DNA of 64,000 nucleotides from Coriobacteriia bacterium (GTDB taxonomy: Bacteria; Actinomycetota; Coriobacteriia; WRKU01; JAENWW01). The stretch is from assembly GCA_016649875.1 (NCBI GenBank), contig JAENWW010000002.1:84851-148850 (forward strand), read 5' to 3'. Position numbers and translations under genes: made by a program. Shown in pieces: positions 25,154 to 43,327 of this stretch (the first letter of the stretch is position 1; the number at the start of each line of letters is the position of its first letter). The notes beneath the pieces were generated by a model. It searched no databases, was not told the origin of the DNA, and saw only the letters and a list, made by a program, of their open reading frames with translations.

Positions 25154-26218
25154 ATGGATGAAGCAAAAAAAATACGCCTGACTCAAATGTCGAGCAAAGC
25201 CGGTTGAGCAGCGAAGTGGGGTCCGGCGGATCTCAAAGCGGTGCTGGATAAAATCGATCCCGGACAGAGCGACAATCTCATGCTCGGGTTCGAAACAAGC
25301 GACGATGCGGCTGTCTACAAGCTAACCGACGACATCGCCGGCTTGATGACGATTGACTTTTTCACGCCGATTGTCGATGACCCCTATGACTTCGGCCGCA
25401 TCACCGCGGCCAACGCGCTTTCGGACATATACGCCATGGGAGGCAAACCGCTCACCGCGTTGAACATGATTGCGTTTCCGTGTTCTTTGGGTCCCGACAT
25501 CGTCGGCGAAGTGGTGCGGGGCGGCGCCGAGAAAGTCGCGGAAGCCGGTGCAGTCGTCGTCGGCGGACACACGATAGACGATAAAGAACCGAAGTACGGT
25601 CTCTCGGTCTTCGGAGTCGTGAATCCTCTCAAGGTGCTTCGTAACAAGGGAGCGCGTGAGGCTGACGCAATCGTCGTCACCAAGGCGCTTGGCACCGGTC
25701 TATGGGGAACAGCCATTAAGCGCGGTGTGGCCGACGAGACAACCGCCCACGAGGCAATCGAATCCATGGCCAAACTCAATAAATACGCATGCGAGGCTCT
25801 CGAGGGAGTCGATGTCCATGCCCTTACCGACATCACCGGGTTCGGACTCGCCGGTCATCTGCACGAAATGGCGGAGGCGAGCGGTGTGGCCGCCCACATT
25901 GAGACGGAGTGCATACCTCTACTCGAGCAGGTCTATGAACTTTCAACCGGGAATGTGGTTCCGGGTCGCACGGCGGATATCATCGCTTGGACCCGAGAGT
26001 TTTTATCCTGGTCGGCCGAAAGTTATTCTCAGGAGGAGCGCCGCACGTGGATGCAAATTCTCTGTGATCCTCAAACAAGCGGCGGGCTTATGATTGCAAT
26101 GCCTCAAAACCAGGTTGAAACGTATTACGACAATCTCATCCGTATCGATTCGGATGCGATATGCGCAGTCGTCGGAACGTTCGAGCACGGAACTCCGGGC
26201 AAAATCACCATTAATTAG
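25154..26218 (+). CDS. selD: Selenide, water dikinase SelD, selenocysteine-containing (in-frame TGA)
   Basis: The 25241..26218 ORF has SelD motifs (DDAAVYKL, FFTPIVDDPYDFGRITAANALSDIYAMGGKP). Reading upstream in frame gives MDEAKKIRLTQMSSKAG-TGA-AAKWGPADLKAVL. This matches the E. coli N-terminus [30 protein letters not shown], with Sec at the catalytic Cys17 position. The TGA is at about 25205-25207 and the ATG at about 25154 (+/-1 nt counting uncertainty). A hairpin GGGGTCC-GGC-GGATCTC begins 11 nt after the TGA. Confidence 0.85.
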
Positions 26219-26285
26219 CTCGAAATATTTCTCAAATATCAATTATTATTATAATAACTATCAGCACTTTCAAAAAGGAGGCGGT

Positions 26286-26624
26286 ATGAAAAAATTCATG
26301 GTGCTTGCAACAGACGCAATCGGCAAGGGGAACGATGAGCTCGGCGCGATTCTCACACGTGTTTTTTTGACTTGTTTGGGGCAGGGGGAAGAGGTGCCCG
26401 AAGTTCTCGCTCTCATGAATGCAGGCGTTAAGTTGGCGTGTGAGGGCTCCGAAGTCCTCGATGAGCTCAGGGCCGTTGAAGCGCGAGGCGTGAAGATAAA
26501 AGCCTGTGGAACGTGTCTCGACTTTTTCGGAATCCGTGAGCAACTGATGGTCGGTGAGGCGGGAAAGATGCCCGATACCGTCGCAGCGCTCATGACGGCC
26601 GAGGACTCGATTGTAATCTCTTAA
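26286..26624 (+). CDS. Small DsrE/DsrF-like (YedF C-terminal-domain-like) protein, putative sulfur/selenium relay protein
   Basis: 112 aa, MKKFMVLATDAIGKGNDELG...KACGTCLDFFGI. Good RBS AAAGGAGG 6 nt upstream of ATG 26286. Located between selD and selA. The 176-aa track ORF is an artefactual 5' extension through an AT-rich promoter region. Confidence 0.5.
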   Translation: MKKFMVLATDAIGKGNDELGAILTRVFLTCLGQGEEVPEVLALMNAGVKLACEGSEVLDELRAVEARGVKIKACGTCLDFFGIREQLMVGEAGKMPDTVAALMTAEDSIVIS

Positions 26625-26698
26625 AAGAGCGCCTCGTTTCGGGTCCGTTTGTTGAAGCCGCAGGCGCGATTCAGGGATACATACGCTACAATGCAAGT

Positions 26699-28126
26699 AT
26701 GAAAACAAACATCACCACACAAGACCTTTTCAGATCATTGCCCAAGGTCGATGAAGTTCTCTCCGCGGAACAAGTCGCCGCGCTGCTACCGGCGGTTCCG
26801 CGCTCGGTGGTGCTTACTTCGGCACGTACTGCGATAGAAAATATGCGATCTGCCATCGCCACCGGGTCGCGAGCAGAACCGGTGTCACTTGCCGAAGTGG
26901 TGGCGGATACCATCTCAAGTGCACATATTCGTATGCAACCTTCGTTGCGAAGAGTCATCAATGCAACGGGTATAATCATTCACACGAATTTGGGACGGAG
27001 CATTTTGGCCGATTCGGCCGCCGAAGCGGTGCAAGAGGTAGCCTCGCATTATTCGACATTGGAATACAACTATGAAAGAGGCGTCCGCGGCTCACGCCAT
27101 GATCATGTAGAGTCTCTTCTTTGCGAGCTCACCGGAGCTGAGGCGGCTCTTGCGGTCAACAACAATGCGGCGGCGGTCATGATGTGTATCGCTTGTTTTT
27201 CACGTGGCCGGGAGGCAATCGTTTCTCGGGGGCAACTCGTCGAAATCGGCGGTTCGTTTCGTGTTCCCGACATCATGGCGGAGTCCGGTGCGCACATGGT
27301 GGAAGTGGGAGCGACGAACAAAACGCATCTTAAAGACTACGAAAATGCGACCAATGAGAAAACAGGTTTGTATCTCAAGGTCCATTCGTCCAATTACCGC
27401 GTGATCGGATTCACTTCGGAAGTCGAACTCGCCGAGCTTGTGGACCTCGGTGCGAAACATGACATTCCGGTTATGGAGGACCAAGGGTCCGGTGTTTTGC
27501 TCGATTTGAGAAAGTACGGTTTGCCCTATGAACCGACGGTTTCCGAATCGGTGAAAGCAGGGGCGAGCATCGTGACTTTTTCGGGAGATAAGCTTCTCGG
27601 GGGTCCCCAGGCAGGTATCATCGTCGGCAAATCTGAGGCGATTGCCCGGTTGAAAGCCCACCCTCTCGCCCGCGTGCTTCGTCTCGATAAGATGACCTTG
27701 GCCGCGCTGGAAGCCACGTTGATGATTTATCGCGATGAAGACAGGGCGGTTGAAGAAATTCCCACGCTTCACGCTTTGACGATGGATCTCGAAGAGTGCA
27801 AGACACGTGCGAACGGACTCGCCGAGTCTCTCCTCGAAGCTTTGAGAAAAGAAGGTCTACTCGGCACTGTGGATATTTCCGTCGATGTCGATATCGCTCG
27901 CGCCGGCGGAGGGTCGCTGCCTTTGGCCGACATTCCGACCGCTGTACTCTCGTTGAGATTCGAAGACGTTTCCGCCACTGAAGTCGAGCGTCTCTTGCGT
28001 ATCGATTCGCCGGTTCCCATCGTCGCGCGTATAAACGATGAGAGATTGCTCATCGATCCGCGTACGTTCGTGTCTGATGATGCATCTGTCGTCGTGGAGC
28101 AACTATGCAAAATACTGCGCCGCTGA
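26699..28126 (+). CDS. selA: L-seryl-tRNA(Sec) selenium transferase (selenocysteine synthase)
   Basis: 475 aa. SLPKVDEVL N-terminal motif. RVINATGIIIHTNLGRSILADSAAEAV (compare E. coli INATGTVLHTNLGRA). PLP-lysine region FSGDKLLGGPQAGII. Confidence 0.9.
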   Translation: MKTNITTQDLFRSLPKVDEVLSAEQVAALLPAVPRSVVLTSARTAIENMRSAIATGSRAEPVSLAEVVADTISSAHIRMQPSLRRVINATGIIIHTNLGRSILADSAAEAVQEVASHYSTLEYNYERGVRGSRHDHVESLLCELTGAEAALAVNNNAAAVMMCIACFSRGREAIVSRGQLVEIGGSFRVPDIMAESGAHMVEVGATNKTHLKDYENATNEKTGLYLKVHSSNYRVIGFTSEVELAELVDLGAKHDIPVMEDQGSGVLLDLRKYGLPYEPTVSESVKAGASIVTFSGDKLLGGPQAGIIVGKSEAIARLKAHPLARVLRLDKMTLAALEATLMIYRDEDRAVEEIPTLHALTMDLEECKTRANGLAESLLEALRKEGLLGTVDISVDVDIARAGGGSLPLADIPTAVLSLRFEDVSATEVERLLRIDSPVPIVARINDERLLIDPRTFVSDDASVVVEQLCKILRR

Positions 28127-30039
28127 TTCTGGGCACCGCCGGTCATATCGACCACGGAAAATCAACTTTGATAAAGGCTTTGACGGGCGTGGACCCCGAT
28201 CGCCTCGCCGAAGAAAAAGAGCGAGGCATCACCATCGAACTCGGTTTCGCCGAGTTGGTGACACCGAAAGGTGTGCACTTCGGCGTCGTCGATGTTCCCG
28301 GACATGAGAAGTTCGTGCGCCACATGGTTTCCGGTGCCGCCGGAATCGATGTCGCATTGCTGGTAATCGCTGCCGATGACGGAATCATGGTGCAAACGCG
28401 TGAGCATGCGGCCATTCTCAATTTGCTCGGTGTGGAACATGCGGTCGTCGCATTGACTAAAATCGATAGGGTCGAGGCGGACTGGGCCGATCTCGTCGAA
28501 ATGGATATAGAAACCCTTTTAGAGGGAACTCTTCTCGAAGGGTCGCCCGTCGTTCGCGTTTCATCGACGACCGGACGCGGCATCGAGGCGTTGCTAAGCG
28601 CACTCGACGACACTGCCGAAAAGATTGCTGAGCGGGGACGGACAAACAATACGTCCGTCGCTCGGCTTCCGATCGATCGCGTTTTCACCATCTCGGGGGC
28701 CGGGACGGTCGTGACGGGCACGTTATGGTCGGGGGCGATAGTGCTCGGCGATGAGCTGGAAGAGGTGTCCGCACACAAGAAAGTCCGCGTGCGCGGTATC
28801 CAAGTCCATAACGTCGATGTAGAACAAGCGTTGGCCGGAATGCGTGTCGCACTCAATCTATCGAATATCGATAAGTCCGAGGTATCTCGGGGCGACATGC
28901 TTGCCACGCGGGGTGCGCTTCGCGAAACGAATATCTTCAACGCAATCTTTACCTACATCGGCTCCGAGTCCTCGGAAAGCGACACCAAGCCGTTGAAGAG
29001 CGGGACTCGTGTTCACGTCCATCATGGAACCGTCGCAACTGTCGGCCAGATTTTTTTCTTCGACGAAAAGTCGATCCGGCCGAACCGGAGCGTCTTCGCT
29101 CAGATACGTTTGGAAAAACCGATAGCTCCCGTTTATCTCGACCATTTCATCATTCGAAGCTTTTCACCGGTTTTCACCATCGGAGGAGGCGTCGTCCTCG
29201 ATGCGTCTCCTGCAAAGCGTACGCGAATCTCTGCCGATGAGCACGACTTGCTCGAGGCGCTTGCGAGTCGAGATTACGAAAAGGCCGCATGCGAACTCCT
29301 CGTCGTCAAAAAGGAACCCCTGAGCAGTGCGATGATTGCCGGGCTGCTCGGATGCGAGCGGAGCCGCGTTGCAACTGCGCTCAATACTTCGAACGCAGCG
29401 CGCATCAAAGTCGCCAAAGAGACGCTGTTCGTCGATCCTCTCGTATACGACCATGTCGCCGCAGCGATAAAGACCGAGCTTCTCGCGCTCTACGACAGGT
29501 ATCCTTCTGAGCATGCTTTCTCCCTTCCGATGCTCAAAGACCGAGTCGATACGCGGATGACACCGGAGGTTTTTGCGGCATTCGCCGAAATCGCCGCCGA
29601 AGCGCCGGAAATCGAACTTGTCGCCGGTCGAATCAGCCATTCCGGGGCCGCGTCGAATATCCATGCGCTCGAAGATGAGATTGCACGACAGGCGCTCGCT
29701 CGTATCGGGCACCGGGGGTTGGAAGTCGAAACGACCGCTGAACTGGCGAGAGCGCTGGGGGCGGATTCAAAGTTCGTCGGTCGCATTCTCGGACGAATCG
29801 CCTCCGAAGGGGGACTCATCCGCCTCGCGGGGGATTTGCATTTTTTGCCCGGAGATGTCTCAAAAGCTGAAGAAATCGTGAAGAAGGCACTGCGAGATGC
29901 GACTGCCGAGGCACCCGTATCTGCCTCGGAATTGTGCGCTGCAATGGGTTTGAGCAGGAAGTATGCCATTCCGCTTCTCGAGTACTTCGATTCGCAGGGT
30001 GTTACGCGTCGAATCGGCAATGGGAGAATTCTCGTTTGA
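28105..30039 (+). CDS. selB: Selenocysteine-specific translation elongation factor SelB
   Basis: 644 aa. GTPase N-terminus ILGTAGHIDHGKSTLIKALTG, DVPGHEKF, NKID. Long C-terminal winged-helix extension as in SelB. Overlaps selA by 22 nt. Confidence 0.9.
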   Translation: MQNTAPLILGTAGHIDHGKSTLIKALTGVDPDRLAEEKERGITIELGFAELVTPKGVHFGVVDVPGHEKFVRHMVSGAAGIDVALLVIAADDGIMVQTREHAAILNLLGVEHAVVALTKIDRVEADWADLVEMDIETLLEGTLLEGSPVVRVSSTTGRGIEALLSALDDTAEKIAERGRTNNTSVARLPIDRVFTISGAGTVVTGTLWSGAIVLGDELEEVSAHKKVRVRGIQVHNVDVEQALAGMRVALNLSNIDKSEVSRGDMLATRGALRETNIFNAIFTYIGSESSESDTKPLKSGTRVHVHHGTVATVGQIFFFDEKSIRPNRSVFAQIRLEKPIAPVYLDHFIIRSFSPVFTIGGGVVLDASPAKRTRISADEHDLLEALASRDYEKAACELLVVKKEPLSSAMIAGLLGCERSRVATALNTSNAARIKVAKETLFVDPLVYDHVAAAIKTELLALYDRYPSEHAFSLPMLKDRVDTRMTPEVFAAFAEIAAEAPEIELVAGRISHSGAASNIHALEDEIARQALARIGHRGLEVETTAELARALGADSKFVGRILGRIASEGGLIRLAGDLHFLPGDVSKAEEIVKKALRDATAEAPVSASELCAAMGLSRKYAIPLLEYFDSQGVTRRIGNGRILV

Positions 30040-34948: not shown

Positions 34949-35618
34949 GTCGGCCTCCCTCTTTGGTCATGATTCCGGTGAGCAAGTTGGGTCGGACGGA
35001 CGCGATATAGCGCAGAATGAATCCGGTCAATGTCGCCTCGATGAGCCAGCCTATCGGACCGAGCACGTAAACTGTTCTGGCAAATACTTTCAACGAGACC
35101 ACTCCGCCCGCATGACTCGGGATACTCCCGGATATCGTCGAAACGACGCCGAGCATCAGAGTGGTTGAAATTGCGAGGGTGATCACGGTGACGATTCCGC
35201 CGATGAGCCCGATGTGTTTCGTGCCGAACAGTTTGACGAATGCACGAAAAAGAAGCGAACCGATGGTCATTTCCAGTGCGCCGAGCACGAGATTGATGCC
35301 GGCGACGGTTATGCCTCCATGCCCCACGAAAGCCAACACGATTTCGATGATGAGAGCGGCAATCGGAGACAGGAGCGGGCCGATGAGTGTGCCCGCCAAT
35401 ACGCTTAAGTTGACATGATAGGCCAGTGGGACGATTTCCAAGCTCATGGCGACGAGCATGAACGCCGATACCACGGCGAGCAGCGGAAGTTTTCTCAATA
35501 TGTCCGGTTTCGATGATGCGATTCTGTTCGCGATGAAAATCCACGCGAGCGCGATAATCCATCCCGTTACCCAGACCCAAACCGGCAGTATGCCGTCCGG
35601 CAAATGTATGTGTGACAT
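34929..35618 (-). CDS. cbiM: ECF transporter substrate-specific component CbiM (Co/Ni uptake)
   Basis: MSHIHLPDGILP N-terminus, a hallmark of CbiM/NikM (the N-terminal His is metal-coordinating). 7 predicted TMs. Overlaps cbiQ by 20 nt. Confidence 0.75.
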   Translation of the reverse strand: MSHIHLPDGILPVWVWVTGWIIALAWIFIANRIASSKPDILRKLPLLAVVSAFMLVAMSLEIVPLAYHVNLSVLAGTLIGPLLSPIAALIIEIVLAFVGHGGITVAGINLVLGALEMTIGSLLFRAFVKLFGTKHIGLIGGIVTVITLAISTTLMLGVVSTISGSIPSHAGGVVSLKVFARTVYVLGPIGWLIEATLTGFILRYIASVRPNLLTGIMTKEGGRHENHND

Positions 35619-35801
35619 TCATGCTCCGTAGCGAAGATAGGTACCGAGAATATAGTTCAGTATAAAGCTTTCGCGTAACAATCCGATAGTTTCGAACCTC
35701 TGTAAGTATAACAAGGCCAAACACGATCATTAGATTACACTTATACTATTGAATACTATTGAAATAACTTATCGTCGGTTTTCTCACTGAAAGTTTTTCT
35801 T

Positions 35802-36692
35802 ATGAATATACAACAGCTTAAAACATTCATAACCGTCGTCGATGCGGGATCGTTTTCCGCGGCCGCCCGCGTGCTCGGTGTTTCCCAACCGGCGGTGACG
35901 ATGCAAGTGCAAAATCTCGAATCGGATATCAACCAGTCACTTCTCGACAGACGTTATCGACGAATCGAGTTGACGGAAGCCGGGAGAGTCCTCGTTCCTT
36001 ACGCACGGGAAATGTTGTCGGAATCGCAAGCTGCGCGTGCAGAGATCAATGCGCTTTCCGGTGAGGTTTCGGGCCCTCTGCACATCGCTTTGAGCACAAC
36101 GCCCGGTGATTATATAATTCCGAACCTCCTCGGCGAGTTTTTGCGTGAGTATCCCGATGTCACCGTACGGCTGACGGTGACGAATACCAATGAAGTGGTC
36201 GAGCACATCGAGGATAGAGATGCCGATATCGGCATGGTCGGAGCACTGTCGAAAAGCAGCTCGGTGAAATTCAAACAGATGGGATCGGACGAGTTGATTC
36301 TCATCACCGGTCCGGATACGCCGTTGGCAAAGCAGGACGGCGAAGTGGGTCTCAAAGAGTTGTCTTCATACCCCTGGGTCGCTCGAAGTGCCGATTCGGG
36401 GACCCAGCAAGTGGTGAAAGCTCTGTTCGTCAAAAAATCAATCGACTACGGAGCATTGCATTTCCTCGTCGAACTCGGAACGGGCGAGGCGGTCGTCAAT
36501 GCTGTCGAAGGTGGACTCGGGATTGCCATCGTCAGCCGTTATGTAGCCGCAAACGCACTTGCATTGCGAACGATCGTCGAGATCGAGTGCGAGGAGCTCC
36601 CTTTGCCGCGACCCTTTTATTTAGTGACGCCGAAGAGAACACTCGCCCGTGCGGCAAGCGCGTTCGTAGACTTTTTGGCGACAAAGTTATAA
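35802..36692 (+). CDS. LysR family transcriptional regulator
   Basis: N-terminal HTH MNIQQLKTFITVVDAGSFSAAARVLGVSQPAVTMQVQNLE and a LysR substrate-binding domain. Divergent from cbiM. Confidence 0.85.
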   Translation: MNIQQLKTFITVVDAGSFSAAARVLGVSQPAVTMQVQNLESDINQSLLDRRYRRIELTEAGRVLVPYAREMLSESQAARAEINALSGEVSGPLHIALSTTPGDYIIPNLLGEFLREYPDVTVRLTVTNTNEVVEHIEDRDADIGMVGALSKSSSVKFKQMGSDELILITGPDTPLAKQDGEVGLKELSSYPWVARSADSGTQQVVKALFVKKSIDYGALHFLVELGTGEAVVNAVEGGLGIAIVSRYVAANALALRTIVEIECEELPLPRPFYLVTPKRTLARAASAFVDFLATKL

Positions 36693-36763
36693 CGTTTTCA
36701 TCATATGATCCAACTTGAGACTCGAGCATGATACACTGACGCCTGCAAAAGGAGATTTTGTGT

Positions 36764-37741
36764 ATGAATGTAATTAAACACGGCTCACGCGGGTCGGCGG
36801 TTGAAGACATACAACGTAGGCTGATATACGTGGGATATTCGCTCGATACAACAGGCGTCGACGGTGTTTTCTTAAATGACACCGAGAAGACGCTCATGAA
36901 ATTTCAGCTTGCAATGGGTCTCGAAGCGACGGGCGAAGTCGATTCGTGCACATGGTCGATGCTCGTCGATTCGACATTTGCATTCGGGGATCGCATGTTG
37001 TATCTGCGCTATCCTTTGTTTCACGGACGGGATGTCGAAATTCTTCAAGTCGCGCTTAACAGTCTCGGCTTTACGTGCGGAGATGTCGACGGCATATTCG
37101 GAACCTATACCGAACGGGCGGTCATAGAGTTGCAATCCAACATGGGCCTTCCCGCCGACGGCGTCGTGGGGCGTGAGACATTTTCCACGCTCAACAGCCT
37201 TAAGCATATGTGGGAAGGCAAGAAGGTCGTATCCCATTCATCGGCGCAGGCGACATCGACTCATCGAAATAAAGTTTTAGCGCATCTGGCGCTCGTCATC
37301 ACGGCACAGGACCCGATGTCGTATCAAGTCGCTCGACGGATTAAAAACCTCGCGCAAGCGTCCTATGAGGATGCGAGTGTCACGACGATATGGGGAGAGT
37401 CGGTATCCTCAATCGGACCTGCGAAAGAGACGTACGAAAACCACGTCGCTTTCACCTTATATGAAGAGGACTCATCGCAGCCGACGACGGCCATTTCTTC
37501 GGTTGTACAGACCGGTTCTTCGGTCAAACTCGATTTGCAACTGGTGGAACTCGGGGAGCGAGAAGATGCCCTTATGGCATCGATTACCCCTCTAGTTGAA
37601 AAAGACCCATGTGGAAGTTTTGTGATTAAAATTCCTGCGAATACACTCGGTCATGGCTCTAAGCAGGGCTTTCAAAATATCGCCGTCTTGATACTGGACG
37701 CGGTGTGTGGCGCGTACGGTGATATTGACCGTGCAATTTGA
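36764..37741 (+). CDS. Peptidoglycan-binding domain protein (two PG_binding_1 repeats) with C-terminal domain of unknown function
   Basis: Two repeats of the ...GSRGSAVEDIQRRL...DGVFLNDTEKTLMKFQLAMGL... pattern, typical of putative peptidoglycan-binding domains. ATG at 36764 with an AAAAGGAG RBS 9 nt upstream. Confidence 0.6.
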   Translation: MNVIKHGSRGSAVEDIQRRLIYVGYSLDTTGVDGVFLNDTEKTLMKFQLAMGLEATGEVDSCTWSMLVDSTFAFGDRMLYLRYPLFHGRDVEILQVALNSLGFTCGDVDGIFGTYTERAVIELQSNMGLPADGVVGRETFSTLNSLKHMWEGKKVVSHSSAQATSTHRNKVLAHLALVITAQDPMSYQVARRIKNLAQASYEDASVTTIWGESVSSIGPAKETYENHVAFTLYEEDSSQPTTAISSVVQTGSSVKLDLQLVELGEREDALMASITPLVEKDPCGSFVIKIPANTLGHGSKQGFQNIAVLILDAVCGAYGDIDRAI

Positions 37742-37813
37742 TACAATGTAAAAGCCGGCTCGGTTCTTGGGGCTACGGTGGAAATTAACCTATGTCAGGA
37801 GCTTATTCTGAAT

Positions 37814-38860
37814 ATGAAAAAGGTCATATCATTTATCGGAGCGTGTGCCATCGGTGTCCTGGCGTTCGGTGCCATGGGAACGAGTCTTTCCGGGGCGATT
37901 CCGGCCACCAAACTCCAAGAGGTCAAAGTCATCAAGGCACAAGTGGATGCGCTTGATACGAGGGTTGAAATTGCTTCCGAAAATTATAACGCAGCATCGG
38001 TTAATTACAATAAAGCCGTCGCGAAGCGTGTAACGGCCCAGGCCAAGCTCACCAAAACCAAAAAACGTCTCGATGTCGTCCAAGTCCATCTCGACGACCG
38101 GGCAAAATCCATGTACCGCCAAGGATCGGCGGGATTTGTCGAGGTGCTGTTCGGTGCCGAGAGTTTCGATGATTTCGCTTCCGTTTGGGGTATCTTGAAC
38201 AACATGAACGAGGATGACGCCAAGTCGGCACAGGAGCTCAAGCAACTCAAAGCGGAAATGGTCTCTTTGACCGATCAGCTCAAGGCGGAGGAAAAAACTG
38301 CTGCGGCCGCTCAGGCGACCATGAAAAATAATAAAGACAGCATCGAGGCACAACTCGCTGAGCGTACGTCGATGCTCAAAGGTGTCCAAGCCGAGGTCGA
38401 CGCGCTGGATCAAGCTGAAGCGGCGGCGGCGCTAAGCGCTGCTGCGGCCTCAGAAAGTTCCGGCGGCGGTTCTTCGGGTGGGGGCAGAACGTTCCCGTCT
38501 CCCACGAGAGCACCGAGAAGCCAAGTCGTCGCCATCGCAAAACGCTACCTGGGAGCTCCTTATAAATGGGGGGAGGACGGTTCGAATTCATTCGATTGCT
38601 CAGGATTGACGAGTTTCGTGTATCGTCAAGTGGGAGTGTCGTTGCCGCATAGCTCACGTGCGCAAATCAACGCACGTGGCACTCAGCGAGTGAGCCGTGC
38701 CGATCTTGCACCGGGTGACCTCGTGTTCTTCCACAGCCCGATCAGCCATGTGGGAATTTACATCGGTGGGGGACGCATGATTGAAGCACCGCATCACGGT
38801 GCCCGTGTGAGAATCGCATCGATAAGCGGTCGTGGTTACGTCGGAGCCTGTCGTCCATAA
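37814..38860 (+). CDS. NlpC/P60 family peptidoglycan endopeptidase with N-terminal signal peptide and long coiled-coil (RipA/PcsB-like)
   Basis: Signal MKKVISFIGACAIGVLAFGAMG. About 200 aa of coiled coil. C-terminal NlpC/P60 catalytic motifs DCSGLTSFVY (Cys) and HVGIYIGGGRMIEAPHHG (His). Confidence 0.75.
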   Translation: MKKVISFIGACAIGVLAFGAMGTSLSGAIPATKLQEVKVIKAQVDALDTRVEIASENYNAASVNYNKAVAKRVTAQAKLTKTKKRLDVVQVHLDDRAKSMYRQGSAGFVEVLFGAESFDDFASVWGILNNMNEDDAKSAQELKQLKAEMVSLTDQLKAEEKTAAAAQATMKNNKDSIEAQLAERTSMLKGVQAEVDALDQAEAAAALSAAAASESSGGGSSGGGRTFPSPTRAPRSQVVAIAKRYLGAPYKWGEDGSNSFDCSGLTSFVYRQVGVSLPHSSRAQINARGTQRVSRADLAPGDLVFFHSPISHVGIYIGGGRMIEAPHHGARVRIASISGRGYVGACRP

Positions 38861-38903
38861 TTGTTGAACTAGCTGTAGGGGTTAAGCCGCGGAAAGGGAG
38901 AAC

Positions 38904-41771
38904 GTGAAGCGCACGAAAGCGTTGGTTTCTGTTGCGTTGAGCGCGCTATGTTTCGGAACTCTGGCCGTGTTGACGCCGATGGCGTACGCCGCGCATGTGG
39001 AGCCTTTGCCTCTACTCGCGTGGCGTTTTTTCATCGCCGCGCTTGTCATCGGATTTTTGGCCTACCGGCGCAATAAGCATGCGTTCAAAGTGCCCAAGCG
39101 CGATTTGGCACGCTATTTCGCTCTTTCGCTATTTGGGTACGGAGCTTCCTCGCTCGCTTTTTTCATTGCGCTTAAGCACGCCGGTTCCGCGGTGGTATCG
39201 GCTCTTCTGTATGCTTATCCCGCTATCGTGGCGCTTGCCGCTGTGGTTTTCTTCAAAGAGAAGTTGAATCGCAACAAAATAATCGCCATTATCGCGGTCG
39301 CCGTGGGATGCTCACTTGTCGTCGGTCTTTTCGGAGGGAAAGCATCCGCCGAGCCGCTCGGCATCATTCTTGCTCTCATGGCGGCATTTTGCTATGCCGC
39401 GTTCAATCTCATGTCGCAAAGGTGGCTTCCCGGACGGTCGTCGATGACGATGATGTCGTTCACGTTCGGATTTTCCGCCGTACTTTTCGTGATACTGTCA
39501 TTGATCAGCGGTGGGCCGGCACTGCTCTTCAGTGCCATCGGTTGGTCGACTCGGGCGTGGGTACTCATGATACTCATCATCATTTTCCCCACGGTGGTAG
39601 CGATTTTGCTGTACTTGCGCGGCGTCAGACAACTCGGTGCTTCCGAGGCGGCTATCGTATCGACGCTCGAGCCTTTGTTCACCGTACTGTTCGCATGGCT
39701 TGCACTCGGACAAGTGCTCGGGTCCGTTCAGCTTTTAGGTGTGCTGCTGATCGTCGGAGGTATCGCCGCAAGCTCCATAGTCGGTAAAACGGCTGAACCG
39801 CCACCGACCGTTCCGTTGACGACCGATGAAATCCAACAAAATCAACAGCCTGAAAAACCGCCTTTGTCGAAGGGGGAAAGGCGTGGCAAAAAAATCTTCA
39901 TTGCAGTTTTAAGTGTCATCGCCGTCCTCATACTCATTCAAGTCATTGTGATATCCGGTGTTGTGTGGCTGCTCAATCAACCCGCCCCCGACATTTCTTC
40001 GCACAACATTTCGGAGCGGTCTTCTCAAGATTCCATCGTCTACGGCGCCGACGGTAGCGTGCTCGCTACGTGGAAGGGCGATGAAGATCGGGCTATCGTT
40101 GCGTATGCAGCGATACCCCAATGCGTGAAAAATTCGACGGTCGCCATTGAAGACAAACGATTTTACGAGCATGGAGGGGTCGACGTAATCTCAATCGCCA
40201 GGGCGTTGAAGAGAAACACCGAAGCCGGGGTCATCAAACAAGGGGGAAGTACCATCACCCAGCAGCTGATTAAGATGCTCTATACCGGAGATAAACGTAC
40301 GCTTTCACGCAAACTCCGAGAAGCCATCATGGCGACGCGTGTCGAGATGGTCTATGACAAAGATCGTGTTTTGGAGGGCTATCTCAACATGGCTTATTAC
40401 GGGCAAGGTGCGTACGGAATCCAAAGTGCGGCAACCAAATATTTCAGCAAGGATGTGCAGAGACTCAATATTCAAGAAGCCGCCATGCTCGCCGGCCTCG
40501 TGCGGTCGCCGAGTGCCTATAATGCTTTCAAAAATCCGGGGCCCGTCAAGAAACGACGAGATTTAGTGCTCAGGGCGATGAACGAGCAGGGGATGATCAC
40601 GGCGGCACAGTATGAGCTTGCGAAAAATTCTCCGCTCGGTCTTGTGCCTCCCAACTCAGTCTCGCAACAAGTGAAATATCCTTTCTTCGTTGATTACGTT
40701 CGGCGCGACCTCATAAGTAAGCTCGGTGAGGAGGCTGTCAATCACGGTGGACTCGCGGTGCGTACGACGTTCGATCCCGCTCTTCAAAATGCGGCGGAAG
40801 CGACAGCGAAGAAATTCAACAAAAATACCGACCCTGAAGTTTCCATCGTCACCGTCCGACAATCCGACGGAGCGGTATTGGCGATGGTCGGGGGACGCGA
40901 TTGGGGACAGAACCAATATAACTTGGCCACACAGGGCAGAAGGCAGCCGGGATCTGCATTCAAGCCGTTTACGCTTATCACGGCACTCGAAAACGGAGTG
41001 TCACTCAGCAAAACGTATTCCACGGCGTCCTATTCGACTCCTGTCAAAGATGGGGTGTGGAAGGTTTCGAACTTCTCAGAGAGCATGACTTCGAGTTCGA
41101 TGACACTTCGTCAGGCAACCGTGTGGTCGGTCAACACCGTATATGCGCGATTGATAATGCAGGTGGGGGCGAAAAAGGTCGCCGCTACGGCGAAAAAGAT
41201 GGGGTTTTCAAGCGAGATCAATCCCGACCCGGCAATTGCGCTCGGTGGCTTGAAATACGGGGTATCTCCTCTTGAGATGGCATCGGCATATGCGACAATC
41301 GCCGATAATGGGCAACGGACACCGACGACGGGAATCGTTTCCGTCGTCGACCGTGACGGAAAAACGCTCTATAAGCCATCCTTGAAAAAGACGCGCATAT
41401 ATTCTGAAAAGACGGGAGTGCAAGTCGCATCCGTTCTGCACGAGGTGGTGGCAGACGGTACGGGGCAGGCCTCACGTATTTCTGAAAGTTCCGCCGGTAA
41501 AACCGGTACGACGCAATCGTATCGCGATGCATGGTTCGTCGGTTGGGCGCACGGTGTTTCGACCGCCGTGTGGATGGGGCATCCCGAAGCCCAAGTGGAA
41601 ATGACTCATGTCAGGGGAAAAGCGGTCACGGGTGGAAGTTTCCCTGCGCAGATGTGGGCCCGATACATGCAAAGCGCCATCGAAATCCGTCCCCTTCAAG
41701 GTTGCCTTATGTCTGCGCACCAGCAAACGGTGACAGGCGGGCAAGGGGTCGATGTGGTGGCTGAGCCCTGA
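38904..41771 (+). CDS. Fusion ORF: N-terminal EamA/DMT-type 10-TM transporter domain (~300 aa) + class A penicillin-binding protein (TM anchor, GT51 transglycosylase, transpeptidase)
   Basis: Continuous 955-aa ORF with a GTG start at 38904 and a GAAAGGGAG RBS. Residues 1-300 are 10 hydrophobic helices with a tandem EamA pattern. Then comes a Pro/Gln linker and a TM KKIFIAVLSVIAVLILIQVIVISGVV. Then GT51 motifs EDKRFYEHGGVD and GGSTITQQL. Then the transpeptidase region (SAFKPF for SxxK, SxN, KTGT). Confidence 0.7.
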   Translation: MKRTKALVSVALSALCFGTLAVLTPMAYAAHVEPLPLLAWRFFIAALVIGFLAYRRNKHAFKVPKRDLARYFALSLFGYGASSLAFFIALKHAGSAVVSALLYAYPAIVALAAVVFFKEKLNRNKIIAIIAVAVGCSLVVGLFGGKASAEPLGIILALMAAFCYAAFNLMSQRWLPGRSSMTMMSFTFGFSAVLFVILSLISGGPALLFSAIGWSTRAWVLMILIIIFPTVVAILLYLRGVRQLGASEAAIVSTLEPLFTVLFAWLALGQVLGSVQLLGVLLIVGGIAASSIVGKTAEPPPTVPLTTDEIQQNQQPEKPPLSKGERRGKKIFIAVLSVIAVLILIQVIVISGVVWLLNQPAPDISSHNISERSSQDSIVYGADGSVLATWKGDEDRAIVAYAAIPQCVKNSTVAIEDKRFYEHGGVDVISIARALKRNTEAGVIKQGGSTITQQLIKMLYTGDKRTLSRKLREAIMATRVEMVYDKDRVLEGYLNMAYYGQGAYGIQSAATKYFSKDVQRLNIQEAAMLAGLVRSPSAYNAFKNPGPVKKRRDLVLRAMNEQGMITAAQYELAKNSPLGLVPPNSVSQQVKYPFFVDYVRRDLISKLGEEAVNHGGLAVRTTFDPALQNAAEATAKKFNKNTDPEVSIVTVRQSDGAVLAMVGGRDWGQNQYNLATQGRRQPGSAFKPFTLITALENGVSLSKTYSTASYSTPVKDGVWKVSNFSESMTSSSMTLRQATVWSVNTVYARLIMQVGAKKVAATAKKMGFSSEINPDPAIALGGLKYGVSPLEMASAYATIADNGQRTPTTGIVSVVDRDGKTLYKPSLKKTRIYSEKTGVQVASVLHEVVADGTGQASRISESSAGKTGTTQSYRDAWFVGWAHGVSTAVWMGHPEAQVEMTHVRGKAVTGGSFPAQMWARYMQSAIEIRPLQGCLMSAHQQTVTGGQGVDVVAEP

Positions 41772-41785
41772 AAGACGTGCGGAGC

Positions 41786-42157
41786 TTAAGACCAGTTACT
41801 TTCGGGCGCATCGGCGAGGCGGGCGAGGCGGCTTTGCTCCTCCTCGATTGCACTTATGACTTTCGGCAGAGTAATCAAACCATCGTAAAAAATTGTTTCG
41901 TTGACCGTGGAAATCGGCCAAAACAAACTGCGCTCCTGTATTTCATGGATGAGTTTTTCACTGAGAAGAGACGGGTTTTCATTGACATCGACATACTCGA
42001 CGTCGACATCGGGGTATCGGCGTTCGACTTCATCGCCGACCATTGCGGTGATCTCAGACTGAGACCATGAAGGGCCTCAACCGCCTGAAAAGCAGTTCGC
42101 TTCTTCGGGACGGTCGTACACTCTGATATGGATGGTTTTTACATTGGGAATCGACAT
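41786..42157 (-). CDS. Candidate selenoprotein: small thioredoxin-fold-like protein with in-frame TGA (Sec) in a C-x4-U-G-P-S motif
   Basis: Minus strand, ATG at 42157. MSIPNVKTIHIRVYDRPEEANCFSGG-TGA(42079..42077)-GPSWSQSEITA runs in frame into the 85-aa track ORF MVGDEVERRY...FWPISTVNETIFYDGLITLPK. A 6-bp hairpin GGTCTC-AGTCT-GAGATC starts 11 nt after the TGA. A complete sel gene set is present in the same window. Confidence 0.45.
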
Positions 42158-42388
42158 GGGCTCAACTTTCTCATTAAAAGTATTTAGATTTTTCAATATA
42201 AAACATTTACGAACGAAATGAAAGGGCTTTGGGAAAATAGGGATATTCCTCATTTTTCAGTTCGAAAAAACAGCTCCGTATTATTGTGTTTAGCTGTGAC
42301 TTCATATAAAGTTTATACTATATGGAATTTATGAGGAGATGCGTTTTCGAATACTCTTCATTTGTGGTTTGAGAAGGAGAAGATACGT

Positions 42389-43327
42389 ATGGCTTGTCAC
42401 CCAATAGCTGCGTTTAAAAACCCAGTGACTCGGCCGCGCGCAATCATTTGGACGGGAACGATTCTTGCATCGTTGTGCATGCTCGTGTTCGTCATGTTTG
42501 CAGCGACCACATCGTATTGGTTCTGCGCCGGCATTTGTCACAGCGTACAAGATGACACTATCGGTTCCTACCAGCGGTCCGCGCACAGCAATGTGTCTTG
42601 TATCGCATGTCACCTTCCCGCTAATGCGAATCCGCTCGTTTACGCAATCCACAAGGTGGAGGCTCTCCCCGAATTGCCGATGGCCATATTCGGCAACTAC
42701 ACTCTTCCGCTCAACGCCGAGAGTGAAGTCTCGATGAGCAAAAAGCTGTTCCCCGACACGCAGTGTACCCAGTGCCATGATTTGAGCACTCGTGAAGTCA
42801 CGCCAAGTAGCGGAATCATCATCGATCACACGGCGCATGCCGATGAAGGCGTTCGTTGTACGATGTGCCACAACCGCGTAGCGCACAACGAATCCGGCGA
42901 TTGGTCTCCGACCGGCGTCAACCCGAAAACTAAAGAGCCGAGCGCAAAGCATGCCGACTTCTTGACGATGACGGCGTGCTATCGTTGCCACGGTCTCGAA
43001 AAAGGTTCGCCTGCGCCCGGAACATGTTTGACATGCCATCCAAAGACTTTCAATTTCAAGCCGAGTGATCACGCGACCGCAGACTTCATGAAAAACCACG
43101 GTAAACTCGCCAAGGCTGAAGTCGAGAAGGTCGCCGAAGCGACCAAGGAAACGGGAGTCCCCTCGCCGACCGCGGATGAAAAATTTGCTTCAGTCGAAAA
43201 ACTGGCTGCTCAAAAGAATGATAAGTCTTCCAAGGATGACGCGACGCTTGCTCCCGTCGGGACGATTGATCGCTGTTATAGCTGTCACGATAAGGCGACG
43301 TTCTGCGACAAGTGTCACGGCAAGTAG
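42389..43327 (+). CDS. Membrane-anchored multiheme c-type cytochrome (NapC/NirT/NrfH-like N-terminus; 7 CXXCH + 1 CX3CH)
   Basis: N-terminal TM AIIWTGTILASLCMLVFVMFAA. Heme-binding motifs CIACH, CTQCH, CTMCH, CYRCH, CLTCH, CYSCH, CDKCH, plus CAGICH. ATG at 42389 with a GAGAAGGAGAAG RBS. Confidence 0.8.
   Translation: MACHPIAAFKNPVTRPRAIIWTGTILASLCMLVFVMFAATTSYWFCAGICHSVQDDTIGSYQRSAHSNVSCIACHLPANANPLVYAIHKVEALPELPMAIFGNYTLPLNAESEVSMSKKLFPDTQCTQCHDLSTREVTPSSGIIIDHTAHADEGVRCTMCHNRVAHNESGDWSPTGVNPKTKEPSAKHADFLTMTACYRCHGLEKGSPAPGTCLTCHPKTFNFKPSDHATADFMKNHGKLAKAEVEKVAEATKETGVPSPTADEKFASVEKLAAQKNDKSSKDDATLAPVGTIDRCYSCHDKATFCDKCHGK

What the first reader, a model, noticed from the sequence alone, without database searches (positions are those of the whole stretch)
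38904..41771. Single 955-aa ORF fusing an EamA/DMT 10-TM transporter domain to a class A penicillin-binding protein
There is no stop codon and no plausible internal start with an RBS between the EamA-like 10-TM region (aa 1-300) and the PBP1A-type module (own TM anchor, GT51 transglycosylase, transpeptidase). A drug/metabolite-exporter-like domain covalently attached to a bifunctional peptidoglycan synthase is not a standard architecture. It could couple substrate or precursor transport to PG synthesis. Alternatively, it could be two genes joined by a frameshift or sequencing error. It sits next to an NlpC/P60 endopeptidase and a PG-binding protein (36764..38860), which together form a cell-wall remodelling cluster.
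Basis: seen in the sequence. Interest (0 to 1): 0.55.

Follow-up and report, generated by a model that had tools for sequence, protein, structure and literature searches.

The report
Transporter fused to cell-wall synthase
A small clade of uncultured Coriobacteriia has permanently joined a 10-helix EamA/DMT membrane transporter gene to the neighbouring class A penicillin-binding protein gene; the fusion is real and kept by selection, but what the transporter half contributes to wall synthesis is still unknown.

Summary
Window 38904..41771 (+) is one 955-aa ORF: two EamA repeats (10 TM), a disordered cytoplasmic linker, an eleventh TM helix, then an intact GT51 glycosyltransferase and a transpeptidase.

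It is not a frameshift or assembly artefact.
- Seventeen further protein clusters (54-84% identity) from independent assemblies have the same architecture.
- Every segment, junction included, is under purifying selection (dN/dS 0.05-0.19).
- The linker holds no in-frame start codon with a ribosome-binding site.

The fusion arose from neighbours. In related Coriobacteriia (Anaerosomatales-like MAGs), an orthologous stand-alone eamA lies just upstream of an orthologous pbp1A, in the same PG-binding / NlpC-P60 cluster. One locus separates the two by a single in-frame stop codon. Fused sequences are monophyletic in both the EamA and PBP trees, which points to one fusion event. One descendant later lost the PBP half.

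The fusion guarantees equimolar co-expression and co-localisation. Mechanistic coupling of transport to peptidoglycan synthesis is plausible but unproven. It is weakened because many relatives keep eamA without the PBP, and because this EamA subfamily also fuses to unrelated neighbours.

Verdict: a new domain-architecture variant of a known enzyme kind, of moderate interest.

The parts
38891..38900 (+). SD-like purine-rich ribosome-binding stretch (GGAAAGGGAG) ahead of the GTG start at 38904
   Evidence: Read directly from the sequence.
38904..39794 (+). EamA/DMT transporter module, aa 1-297. It has two EamA repeats and 10 TM helices (aa 6-24, 35-53, 72-90, 97-115, 126-144, 152-170, 183-201, 220-238, 250-268, 275-293). 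Family signature motifs are RWLPGRS (cytoplasmic loop between TM6 and TM7) and STLEPLFT (TM9, with membrane-embedded Glu256).
   Evidence: Pfam PF00892, two stretches, E=4.9e-37. Hydropathy. AF2 pLDDT above 90. 40-46% identical to the stand-alone EamA next to unfused PBPs. dN/dS 0.13.
39795..39893 (+). Cytoplasmic linker, aa 298-330 (EPPPTVPLTTDEIQQNQQPEKPPLSKGERRGKK). It is disordered, begins where stand-alone EamA proteins end, and finishes in a K/R cluster before TM11. Compared with its closest relative, this lineage carries an 84-nt in-frame deletion (junction 39827|39828) that removes the RRxDWVGPxGE motif conserved in most other fusions.
   Evidence: Alignment A1. AF2 pLDDT below 60 at aa 300-323. 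DNA alignment with L091. dN/dS 0.19. No in-frame start with an SD-like motif.
39894..39950 (+). TM11, the PBP's own membrane anchor (aa 331-349 by hydropathy; AF2 helix 324-357). It aligns with the N-terminal anchor of unfused PBP1A orthologues.
40053..40580 (+). GT51 peptidoglycan glycosyltransferase domain, aa 384-559. The catalytic motifs are intact: AIEDKRFYEHGG (E416), GGSTITQQ and RKLRE (E473).
   Evidence: Pfam PF00912, E=6e-63. These residues are invariant in A1. dN/dS 0.05. Foldseek matches PBP1b 5hlb at E=8e-33.
40842..41555 (+). Acyl-serine transpeptidase domain, aa 647-884, with S684-A-F-K687, S742-V-N744 and K866-T-G868.
   Evidence: Pfam PF00905, E=1.4e-31. Invariant columns in A1. 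dN/dS 0.10.
38904..41771 (+). The whole fused gene (955 aa), identical to an NCBI MAG protein from 'Coriobacteriia bacterium' annotated only as 'PBP1A family penicillin-binding protein'.
36758..37741 (+). Upstream neighbour: protein with two PG_binding_1 domains. It is conserved at this position in both fused and unfused relatives.
   Evidence: Synteny.
37778..38860 (+). Upstream neighbour: coiled-coil plus NlpC/P60 peptidoglycan hydrolase (PcsB/RipC-like architecture). It ends 43 nt before the fused gene on the same strand.
   Evidence: Pfam NLPC_P60 and CC_PcsB. Best NCBIfam match is RipC at 122 bits, below its cutoff. Synteny.
35802..36692 (+). LysR-family regulator at the head of the cluster in the fused clade.
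   Evidence: Synteny.
41786..42043 (-). Convergent DUF1462 small gene that ends the cluster. In the fused clade it occupies the place of the DnaJ-like gene that follows pbp1A in unfused relatives.

Best explanation
This is a genuine gene fusion with a single origin, maintained by selection.

**Origin.** In the ancestor of a small clade of uncultured Coriobacteriia, a stand-alone eamA (DMT permease) gene lay directly upstream of a class A PBP gene in a conserved cell-wall cluster. The eamA stop codon was lost, and reading continued through the short spacer into pbp1A.

**Product.** The product is an 11-TM protein made of four parts:
- a 10-TM EamA permease with both ends in the cytoplasm;
- a flexible cytoplasmic linker of about 30-110 aa;
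- the PBP's own anchor helix, crossing from inside to outside;
- an extracytoplasmic, catalytically intact GT51 glycosyltransferase and transpeptidase.

**How it works.** Both halves probably keep their original activities. The PBP half polymerises and cross-links lipid II. The EamA half carries a still unidentified solute. The only certain consequence of the fusion is obligatory 1:1 co-expression and co-localisation of two proteins that were already genomic partners. It also removes the PBP's separate promoter and start codon.

**Shown:** the architecture, its conservation, purifying selection on every segment, a compatible topology, the ancestral neighbourhood, and the single origin.

**Inferred:** that both halves are active, and that co-localisation is the selected benefit.

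**My estimates:** real fusion 0.95; both modules functional 0.85; the transporter's substrate is relevant to the cell envelope 0.35.
For: **The fusion is real and conserved**
- ORF and domains confirmed.
- Eighteen protein clusters from NCBI, JGI, ENA and Logan assemblies share the architecture at 54-100% identity. Linker length varies but the frame is continuous.
- One GTDB species representative, L011, also carries it as a 1005-aa ORF.
- dN/dS against the 84%-identical orthologue: EamA 0.13, linker 0.19, TM11 0.17, GT51 0.05, TP 0.10.
- Mean pairwise identity among the fusions: EamA 58%, GT51 67%, TP 62%.
- GT51 and TP catalytic motifs are invariant.

**Topology fits**
- Ten plus one TM segments, with K/R-rich loops after TM2, 4, 6, 8 and 10 and before TM11.
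- AF2 gives a confident EamA bundle, a disordered linker, a single helix and a PBP ectodomain.
- The PBP part matches solved class A PBPs.
- No in-frame start codon with an SD-like motif occurs in any fused linker, and L006 has none at all.

**The ancestral state is two neighbouring genes**
- Unfused relatives carry PG_binding - NlpC/P60 - ... - eamA - pbp1A.
- Their EamA is 40-46% identical to the fused domain, and their PBP is 46-53% identical.
- Of 80 GTDB loci, 36 have a complete pbp1A just downstream of eamA.
- L010 has the two ORFs in the same frame, separated by a single stop codon.
- Fused sequences are monophyletic in both the EamA and PBP NJ trees, 50/50 bootstraps each.
Against: - No expression, protein or activity data exist. 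All members are metagenome-derived.
- Reads for this assembly could not be inspected.
- AF2 gives only moderate confidence for TM11 (pLDDT 50-74). The tool returns no inter-domain error estimates, so no docking of TM11 onto the EamA bundle can be claimed.
- Selection for co-localisation is an inference, and a neutral fusion that is merely tolerated would look the same.
- In 31 of 80 related species eamA persists with no PBP next to it.
- One member of the fused clade (P0121, locus L009) lost the PBP half but kept EamA plus linker.
- The conserved linker motif is deleted in this window's gene.
Confidence: 0.8

Rival explanations
1. Mechanistic coupling. The EamA module transports something that the attached synthase needs or releases, and the fusion channels it to the enzyme. 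Candidates are a soluble envelope precursor or decoration, analogous to LicB supplying choline for teichoic acids, or a polyprenyl-phosphate-linked species such as lipid II or recycled undecaprenyl phosphate.
For: - The eamA-to-pbp1A neighbourhood is old and frequent: 36 complete plus 4 partial cases among 72 determinable GTDB loci.
- It lies inside a cell-wall cluster with PG_binding_1, a PcsB/RipC-like NlpC/P60 hydrolase and VanZ.
- The fusion has persisted through divergence to 54% identity, with the EamA half under purifying selection.
- Envelope-related transporters of this fold are known. LicB is the closest solved homologue (PMC8890701). The more distantly related SMR proteins ArnE/ArnF act as glycolipid flippases (PMC9574504).
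- The family-invariant Tyr105, Tyr164 and Tyr237 align to aromatic-box positions of LicB, and an invariant Glu256 lies within TM9.
Against: - eamA is retained without any adjacent PBP in 31 of 80 species, and L008 and L009 lack the PBP.
- The unfused PBP genes appear to have their own promoter-like motif and are often separated from eamA by an antisense ORF.
- The same EamA subfamily is also found fused to a J-domain, a T2SSE ATPase fragment and an SDR, which suggests opportunistic fusion to any neighbour.
- No NCBIfam equivalog reaches its cutoff, and the LicB charge residues are not conserved.
- The linker is disordered, variable in length, and partly deleted in this window.
- No 10-TM EamA protein that flips a lipid-linked substrate is known to me (from my own knowledge, not tested here).
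Confidence: 0.3
2. Neutral 'accident of adjacency'. Loss of a stop codon joined two functionally unrelated neighbours. The fusion is tolerated because the topology happens to fit (a C-in transporter followed by an in-to-out anchor). It spread by descent and brings no benefit.
For: - A single mutation is enough, as the L010 state shows.
- Other fusions of this EamA subfamily to unrelated neighbours exist.
- The fused clade is small: one 50%-identity representative and 1 of 80 GTDB representatives.
- Secondary loss of the PBP half has occurred.
- The linker is poorly conserved, at 41% mean identity.
Against: - The frame has been maintained through deep divergence (dS saturated; 54% amino-acid identity) and through several linker indels that are all in frame, including the 84-nt deletion here.
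- The gene pair was already linked across an order-level group before it fused.
- Neither point excludes neutrality. Breaking the frame would destroy an aPBP, so frame maintenance is expected under this explanation too.
Confidence: 0.45
3. Assembly or sequencing artefact. Two separate genes were joined by a frameshift or indel in this MAG.
For: - The contig comes from a metagenome assembly and reads were not available.
- More distant relatives do have two genes.
Against: - The same continuous frame occurs in 17 other clusters from independent samples and assemblers.
- I read the DNA of L005, L006, L011, L091 and L092 directly.
- dN/dS in the linker is 0.19 and all indels are in frame.
- Fused-clade loci contain no spacer, promoter motif or start codon for a separate PBP.
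Confidence: 0.02
4. The EamA half is a degenerate relic that serves only as an enlarged membrane anchor, or the PBP is also made separately from an internal start.
For: - aPBPs need only one TM anchor.
- An SD-like AAGGGGGAAAGG stretch lies inside the linker coding sequence.
Against: - EamA dN/dS is 0.13, and 72 columns are invariant across the 30 sequences of alignment A4, which combines this window's fused domain with 29 proteins that lack the PBP module.
- AF2 predicts a confident canonical fold.
- EamA survives alone after loss of the PBP half.
- The GTG after the SD-like stretch is out of frame. No in-frame start codon is conserved, and L006 has none.
Confidence: 0.04

Closest known systems
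Class A penicillin-binding proteins (PBP1A family, TIGR02074; e.g. E. coli PBP1b, S. aureus PBP2, A. baumannii PBP1a, M. tuberculosis PonA1)
   Same: The C-terminal 625 aa have a single TM anchor, a GT51 domain and a transpeptidase, all with intact catalytic motifs. They score above the family cutoff and superpose on solved aPBPs.
   Different: Known aPBPs have a short cytoplasmic N-terminus of about 5-100 aa. Here the N-terminus is a complete 10-TM DMT permease plus linker. The gene has no start codon or promoter of its own.
EamA / 10-TMS drug-metabolite exporter family of the DMT superfamily (YddG, EamA, RhtA; closest solved structure is LicB, 7b0k)
   Same: Two EamA repeats, 10 TM helices, a confident DMT fold, and N-in/C-in topology by the positive-inside rule. 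Three aromatic cavity positions of LicB are retained.
   Different: No characterised equivalog reaches its cutoff: TIGR00950 scores 100 against 230, and YddG 45 against 300. LicB E170, R191 and Y255 are not conserved. The substrate is unknown. The domain is covalently joined to an enzyme.
Stand-alone eamA - pbp1A gene pair of Anaerosomatales-like Coriobacteriia (e.g. OW818687.1; loci L007, L010, L017)
   Same: Both halves are orthologous (40-52% identity for EamA, 46-56% for PBP), in the same order and orientation, within the same PG_binding / NlpC-P60 cluster.
   Different: These are two genes, each with its own stop and start, separated by 150-950 bp. The spacer holds a conserved promoter-like motif and often an antisense small ORF. 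A DnaJ-like gene follows the PBP, where the fused clade has DUF1462.
SEDS (FtsW/RodA) - class B PBP chimeras, 'bifunctional class B synthases' (PMC12516126), including one in Senegalimassilia (Coriobacteriales)
   Same: A polytopic membrane domain and a periplasmic penicillin-binding transpeptidase are encoded as one polypeptide of about 900-1000 aa, formed by fusing functional partners.
   Different: In those chimeras the membrane domain is itself the cognate PG glycosyltransferase. Here it is a DMT transporter with no known role in PG synthesis, there is no FtsW/RodA Pfam hit, and the PBP is class A with its own GT51 domain.

Membership tests
Class A PBP (PBP1A family) | GT51 glycosyltransferase domain with its catalytic Glu motifs (EDxxFxxHxG, GGSTITQQ, RKxxE) | tested here: met
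   PF00912, E=6e-63, aa 384-559. E416, D417, G447-Q454, R469, K470 and E473 are invariant in A1.
Class A PBP (PBP1A family) | Acyl-serine transpeptidase with SxxK, SxN and KTG motifs | tested here: met
   PF00905, E=1.4e-31. S684/K687, S742/N744 and K866-T867-G868 are invariant.
Class A PBP (PBP1A family) | Score above the curated family threshold | tested here: met
   TIGR02074 scores 520.2 bits against a cutoff of 508.75.
Class A PBP (PBP1A family) | Single N-terminal TM anchor that places the catalytic domains outside the membrane | tested here: met
   TM11 (aa 331-349) aligns with the anchors of unfused orthologues. It is preceded by a K/R cluster and by 10 TM helices with both ends inside, so the catalytic domains are outside. 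The anchor is internal to the polypeptide rather than at its N-terminus.
Class A PBP (PBP1A family) | Lipid II polymerisation and beta-lactam binding activity | not testable with these tools
   Needs purified protein, bocillin labelling and a lipid II assay.
DMT superfamily, EamA (10-TMS DME) family | Two tandem EamA (DUF6) repeats of 5 TM each | tested here: met
   PF00892, two stretches, E=4.9e-37. Ten hydropathy peaks. Matching helices in AF2 at pLDDT above 90.
DMT superfamily, EamA (10-TMS DME) family | Membership of a characterised equivalog (YddG, EamA/YdeD, 2A78, RhtA) | tested here: not met
   All are below their cutoffs: TIGR00950 100 against 230, YddG 45 against 300, O-acetylserine/cysteine exporter 16.5 against 472.
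DMT superfamily, EamA (10-TMS DME) family | Transport activity and substrate | not testable with these tools
Indirect evidence comes only from purifying selection and invariant polar and aromatic residues.
LicB choline importers | Aromatic box (W17, Y109, W167, Y233, Y236, Y255, N252) plus E170 and R191 | tested here: not met
   Profile against 7b0k gives E=7e-7. Y109, W167 and Y236 align to Tyr. E170 and R191 align to Phe, Y255 to Glu, and N252 to Ser. The alignment is weak (about 23 bits per segment).
SEDS-PBP chimeric synthases | N-terminal FtsW/RodA/SpoVE glycosyltransferase domain | tested here: not met
   No PF01098 hit. The N-terminal domain is EamA.
Polyprenyl-phosphate-sugar flippases of the SMR/DMT fold (ArnE/ArnF) | Four-TM SMR-type subunits encoded in a lipid-modification operon | tested here: not met
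   The module is a 10-TM fused inverted repeat. No SMR-type family appeared in the Pfam scan. Flipping activity cannot be tested here.

The most novel reading that the evidence does not exclude
The EamA module may be a dedicated partner of the aPBP that moves a peptidoglycan-pathway molecule across the membrane. The most radical version has it moving a polyprenyl-phosphate-linked species: delivering lipid II, or returning undecaprenyl phosphate after glycosyltransfer. In that case the fusion would be a 'Rosetta stone' revealing a previously unrecognised DMT-type transporter class in cell-wall synthesis, with the many stand-alone eamA-pbp1A pairs in Coriobacteriia working as non-covalent complexes. 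A milder version has it moving a soluble wall precursor or decoration, in the manner of LicB.
Probability: 0.12. Interest if true: 0.85.

Novelty: new variant of a known kind. Interest (0 to 1): 0.42.

Why it matters
Fusions of neighbouring genes are one of the few sequence-only clues to functional partnership. Class A PBPs are regulated by partner proteins that differ between lineages and are poorly known in Actinomycetota. The transporters that move lipid II and recycle its carrier lipid were identified only recently, and they vary between lineages (from my own knowledge, not checked here).

A DMT permease that has stayed next to an aPBP across an order-level group, and is covalently fused to it in one clade, gives a concrete and testable candidate partner.

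If the link is only neutral adjacency, the case still has value. It is a clean, step-by-step example of how a multi-pass membrane protein and a bitopic enzyme fuse: gene pair, then a single-stop intermediate, then fusion, then secondary loss. It is also an annotation warning, because the database name 'PBP1A family penicillin-binding protein' hides a 300-residue transporter domain.

Tried and rejected
- **Artefact hypothesis.** Rejected by conservation and dN/dS.
- **Internal translation start.** Rejected. The GTG after the SD-like AAGGGGGAAAGG is out of frame, and no in-frame start with an SD-like motif occurs in any fused gene.
- **Degenerate anchor.** Rejected.
- **Promoter and terminator scan of 35500-42400.** Counts were no higher than in shuffled sequence, so operon structure rests only on the 36-65 nt same-strand gaps.
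- **EamA-only homologue search.** For reasons of the tool's candidate selection it returned only proteins without a PBP module, and did not list the fused proteins. It was still useful for finding the stand-alone orthologues.
- **PDB sequence searches with the EamA module.** Only LicB was found, and weakly. The phmmer and profile searches did not retrieve YddG.
- **Profile search of 1.84 billion representatives with the EamA module.** Among the best 150 hits there was no second PBP-length fusion. This cannot exclude independent EamA-PBP fusions built on distant EamA subfamilies.
- **Looking up the window's own protein (P0001) to get its contig.** It was not on record.
- **Identity of the intervening antisense ORF in unfused loci.** No Pfam or NCBIfam match, and only 26% identity between two examples, so it remains uncharacterised.
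- **Literature searches for EamA plus PBP, transglycosylase or fusion.** Nothing relevant was found.
- **AF2 output.** It gives no inter-domain error estimates, so contact between TM11 and the EamA bundle could not be assessed.


Full report
**1. Observation**

A purine-rich SD-like stretch, GGAAAGGGAG, lies just upstream of the start.

Pfam places four domains in a single frame:
- two EamA repeats (E=4.9e-37);
- a GT51 transglycosylase at aa 384-559 (6e-63);
- a transpeptidase at aa 647-884 (1.4e-31).

The C-terminal part passes the curated threshold of the PBP1A family, TIGR02074, at 520.2 bits against 508.75. The N-terminal part resembles generic DMT permeases but reaches no equivalog threshold.

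Hydropathy gives ten TM segments between aa 6 and 293 and an eleventh at 331-349. Lys/Arg-rich segments follow TM2, 4, 6, 8 and 10, and KGERRGKK lies directly before TM11. The transporter therefore has both ends in the cytoplasm, the linker is cytoplasmic, and TM11 carries the PBP domains to the outside.

An AlphaFold2 model built on a 138-sequence alignment has mean pLDDT 89.6. It shows:
- a confident 10-helix bundle;
- a disordered stretch at 300-323;
- one long helix at 324-357 with only moderate confidence;
- a confident bilobed ectodomain.

The ectodomain superposes on E. coli PBP1b, S. aureus PBP2 and A. baumannii PBP1a.

**2. Not an artefact**

A search of 5.8 billion proteins returned the identical protein. 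It comes from an NCBI MAG labelled 'Coriobacteriia bacterium' and is named only 'PBP1A family penicillin-binding protein'. The search also returned 17 further clusters of 954-1027 aa at 54-84% identity, from JGI, ENA, Logan and NCBI assemblies. All carry EamA, Transgly and Transpeptidase.

In their alignment the frame is continuous while linker length varies by indels. The GT51 motifs (EDxxFxxHxG, GGSTITQQ, RKxxE) and the transpeptidase motifs (SxxK, SxN, KTG) are invariant.

I read the DNA of five such loci (L005, L006, L011, L091, L092). Each has one uninterrupted ORF.

Nei-Gojobori dN/dS against the 84%-identical orthologue in L091:

| Segment | dN/dS |
|---|---|
| EamA | 0.13 |
| Linker | 0.19 |
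| TM11 and stalk | 0.17 |
| GT51 | 0.05 |
| Transpeptidase | 0.10 |

Mean pairwise identity among the 18 fusions is 58% for EamA, 67% for GT51 and 62% for the transpeptidase. The transporter half is therefore not decaying.

No fused gene has an in-frame ATG, GTG or TTG preceded by an SD-like motif in the linker, and L006 has no in-frame start there at all. The GTG that follows the SD-like AAGGGGGAAAGG in the window is out of frame. The PBP half can only be made as part of the fusion.

**3. Origin**

The closest unfused PBPs (645-667 aa, 46-53% identity) come from related Coriobacteriia. Their loci read PG_binding_1 - NlpC/P60 - T2SSE ATPase - VanZ(-) - EamA(+) - PBP1A(+) - DnaJ-like.

That stand-alone EamA is 40-46% identical to the fused domain over its full length, including the RWLPGRS loop motif. 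Both halves of the fusion therefore have orthologues that sit side by side.

Fused-clade loci read polyprenyl synthase - CbiMQO - LysR - PG_binding_1 - NlpC/P60 - EamA::PBP - DUF1462(-) - multihaem cytochrome - DUF2085. This matches the window.

I scanned one genome per GTDB species with an EamA alignment. This gave 80 loci, all from Coriobacteriia or Actinomycetota MAGs, two of them named Anaerosomatales. The census of what follows eamA:

| State downstream of eamA | Loci |
|---|---|
| Fused | 1 |
| Complete pbp1A on the same strand | 36 (4 with a ~150-bp spacer, 32 with a 0.65-0.95-kb spacer holding a weakly conserved antisense ORF) |
| Partial PBP match | 4 |
| No PBP within at least 3 kb | 31 |
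| Contig ends too soon | 8 |

Further points on how the fusion formed:
- Stand-alone EamA proteins end (...P-x-x-V*) where the fused linkers begin (EPxPxVPL...).
- In locus L010 the two ORFs are in the same frame, separated by a single stop codon and an otherwise open spacer. One substitution would recreate a fusion.
- The spacers of unfused loci share the motif TTTGCGTGCTAC(C/G)AT, which looks like an extended -10 element. This suggests the PBP originally had its own promoter (inference).
- In neighbour-joining trees of the EamA part and of the PBP part, the fused sequences form one clade with no unfused member inside, in 50/50 bootstraps each. This indicates a single fusion event.
- P0121 (locus L009, 356 aa) is nested in that clade and is 91% identical to P0009 in the EamA domain. 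It retains the fused-type linker motif RRLDWIGPNGE but lacks TM11 and the PBP, and DUF1462 follows directly. This is a secondary loss of the PBP half.
- The window's gene has an 84-nt in-frame deletion in the linker relative to L091, which removes the RRxDWVGPxGE motif that most fusions share.

**4. What it does**

Shown:
- a catalytically intact class A PBP, tethered through a flexible cytoplasmic linker to a conserved DMT permease;
- purifying selection on both halves.

Inferred: both halves are active, and the fusion enforces 1:1 co-expression and co-localisation.

Whether transport is coupled to peptidoglycan synthesis remains open.

In favour of coupling:
- the gene pair is old and lies in a cell-wall cluster, next to a PcsB/RipC-like hydrolase;
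- the fusion has lasted a long time;
- envelope-related transporters of this fold exist. LicB, a choline importer for teichoic-acid decoration, is the closest solved homologue (PMC8890701). The related SMR proteins ArnE/ArnF act as glycolipid flippases (PMC9574504).

Against coupling:
- eamA is retained without the PBP in about 40% of related species;
- this EamA subfamily is also found fused to a J-domain (L087), a T2SSE ATPase fragment (P0242) and a short-chain dehydrogenase (P0343), so it seems to fuse to whatever lies next to it;
- the linker is disordered, variable in length and partly dispensable;
- the LicB proton and charge residues are not conserved, although three aromatic cavity positions are.

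My estimates:
- real fusion: 0.95;
- both modules functional: 0.85;
- an envelope-related substrate: about 0.35;
- a lipid-linked substrate: below 0.1.

**5. Comparison with what is known, and novelty**

The C-terminal module is a member of the PBP1A family, and every testable defining feature is met. The N-terminal module is a member of the EamA/DMT family but of no characterised subfamily.

The nearest architectural precedent is the SEDS-bPBP chimeras described in 2025, one of them from Coriobacteriales (PMC12516126). In those the membrane domain is itself the cognate glycosyltransferase. Here it is a transporter, and there is no FtsW/RodA hit.

Full-text searches found no description of an EamA-PBP fusion. 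At 50% clustering the family collapses to one PBP-length representative among 1.84 billion proteins. Independent fusions built on distant EamA subfamilies could not be excluded.

I rate it a new variant of a known kind. It is real and cleanly explained in evolutionary terms, and of moderate interest. It offers a testable but currently weak lead to a transporter partner of class A PBPs.

**6. Context**

The window is an ordinary chromosomal region. It carries selD-selA-selB, ABC transporters, a polyprenyl synthase, cbiMQO, the cell-wall cluster, a cytochrome, greA, lysS, clpC, radA, ispD, ispF and cysS. GC content does not shift at the gene, so nothing suggests recent horizontal acquisition.

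Noticed in passing
L087:7098-9335 (+): In a GTDB representative that has lost the PBP, the EamA orthologue reads on in frame into a J-domain (…YKALSLKYHPDRRP…). This is an EamA::DnaJ-like join of the two genes that flank pbp1A elsewhere. The ORF tail overlaps an antisense DUF362 gene, so the true end is uncertain and a frameshift is possible.
   Followed up: partly
L010:6001-7200: The unfused eamA and pbp1A are in the same reading frame, with a single stop codon (ending at 6909) and an otherwise open ~150-nt spacer. This is a one-mutation 'pre-fusion' state.
   Followed up: yes
L009:5878-6948 (protein P0121): A member of the fused clade keeps EamA and the fused-type linker (RRLDWIGPNGE) but lacks TM11 and the whole PBP, and DUF1462 follows directly. 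This is a secondary loss of the synthase half. It sits on a short 7.6-kb contig, so a misassembly cannot be fully excluded.
   Followed up: partly
window 39827|39828: An 84-nt in-frame deletion relative to the 84%-identical orthologue (L091) removes the linker motif RRxDWVGPxGExxPxY that most fusions share. The deletion is flanked by GATGA/GAAA microhomology.
   Followed up: yes
L007, L010, L021, L013: spacer between eamA and pbp1A: A conserved DNA motif, TTTGCGTGCTAC(C/G)AT, lies about 80-110 nt upstream of the unfused PBP start codon. It is probably an extended -10 promoter element, and it is absent from the fused genes.
   Followed up: no
L001:7364-7912 (-), L003:7290-7892 (-), and 32 GTDB loci with a 0.65-0.95-kb spacer: A small antisense ORF (182-200 aa, hydrophobic) lies between eamA and pbp1A in most unfused loci. 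It has no Pfam or NCBIfam match and only 26% identity between two examples. Whether it is a real gene is unclear.
   Followed up: partly
proteins P0242 and P0343: Other chimeras of the same EamA subfamily exist: a T2SSE ATPase fragment plus EamA (520 aa), and EamA plus a short-chain dehydrogenase (582 aa). This suggests the permease is repeatedly fused to its neighbours.
   Followed up: partly
window 42362-43327 (+): The NapC/NirT-type multihaem cytochrome ORF is only 321 aa, whereas the gene at the same position in relatives encodes 539-697 aa (L005, L091, L092). It may be truncated, frameshifted or a shorter variant.
   Followed up: no
window 25241-30039 (+): A complete selenocysteine machinery cluster is present: a SelD-like AIRS protein, SelA and SelB. 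The organism therefore probably makes selenoproteins.
   Followed up: no
L001/L003/L007/L010, upstream of eamA: In unfused relatives a VanZ-like gene is divergently adjacent to eamA, and a T2SSE-type ATPase lies between the NlpC/P60 gene and VanZ. Both are absent from the fused-clade cluster.
   Followed up: no
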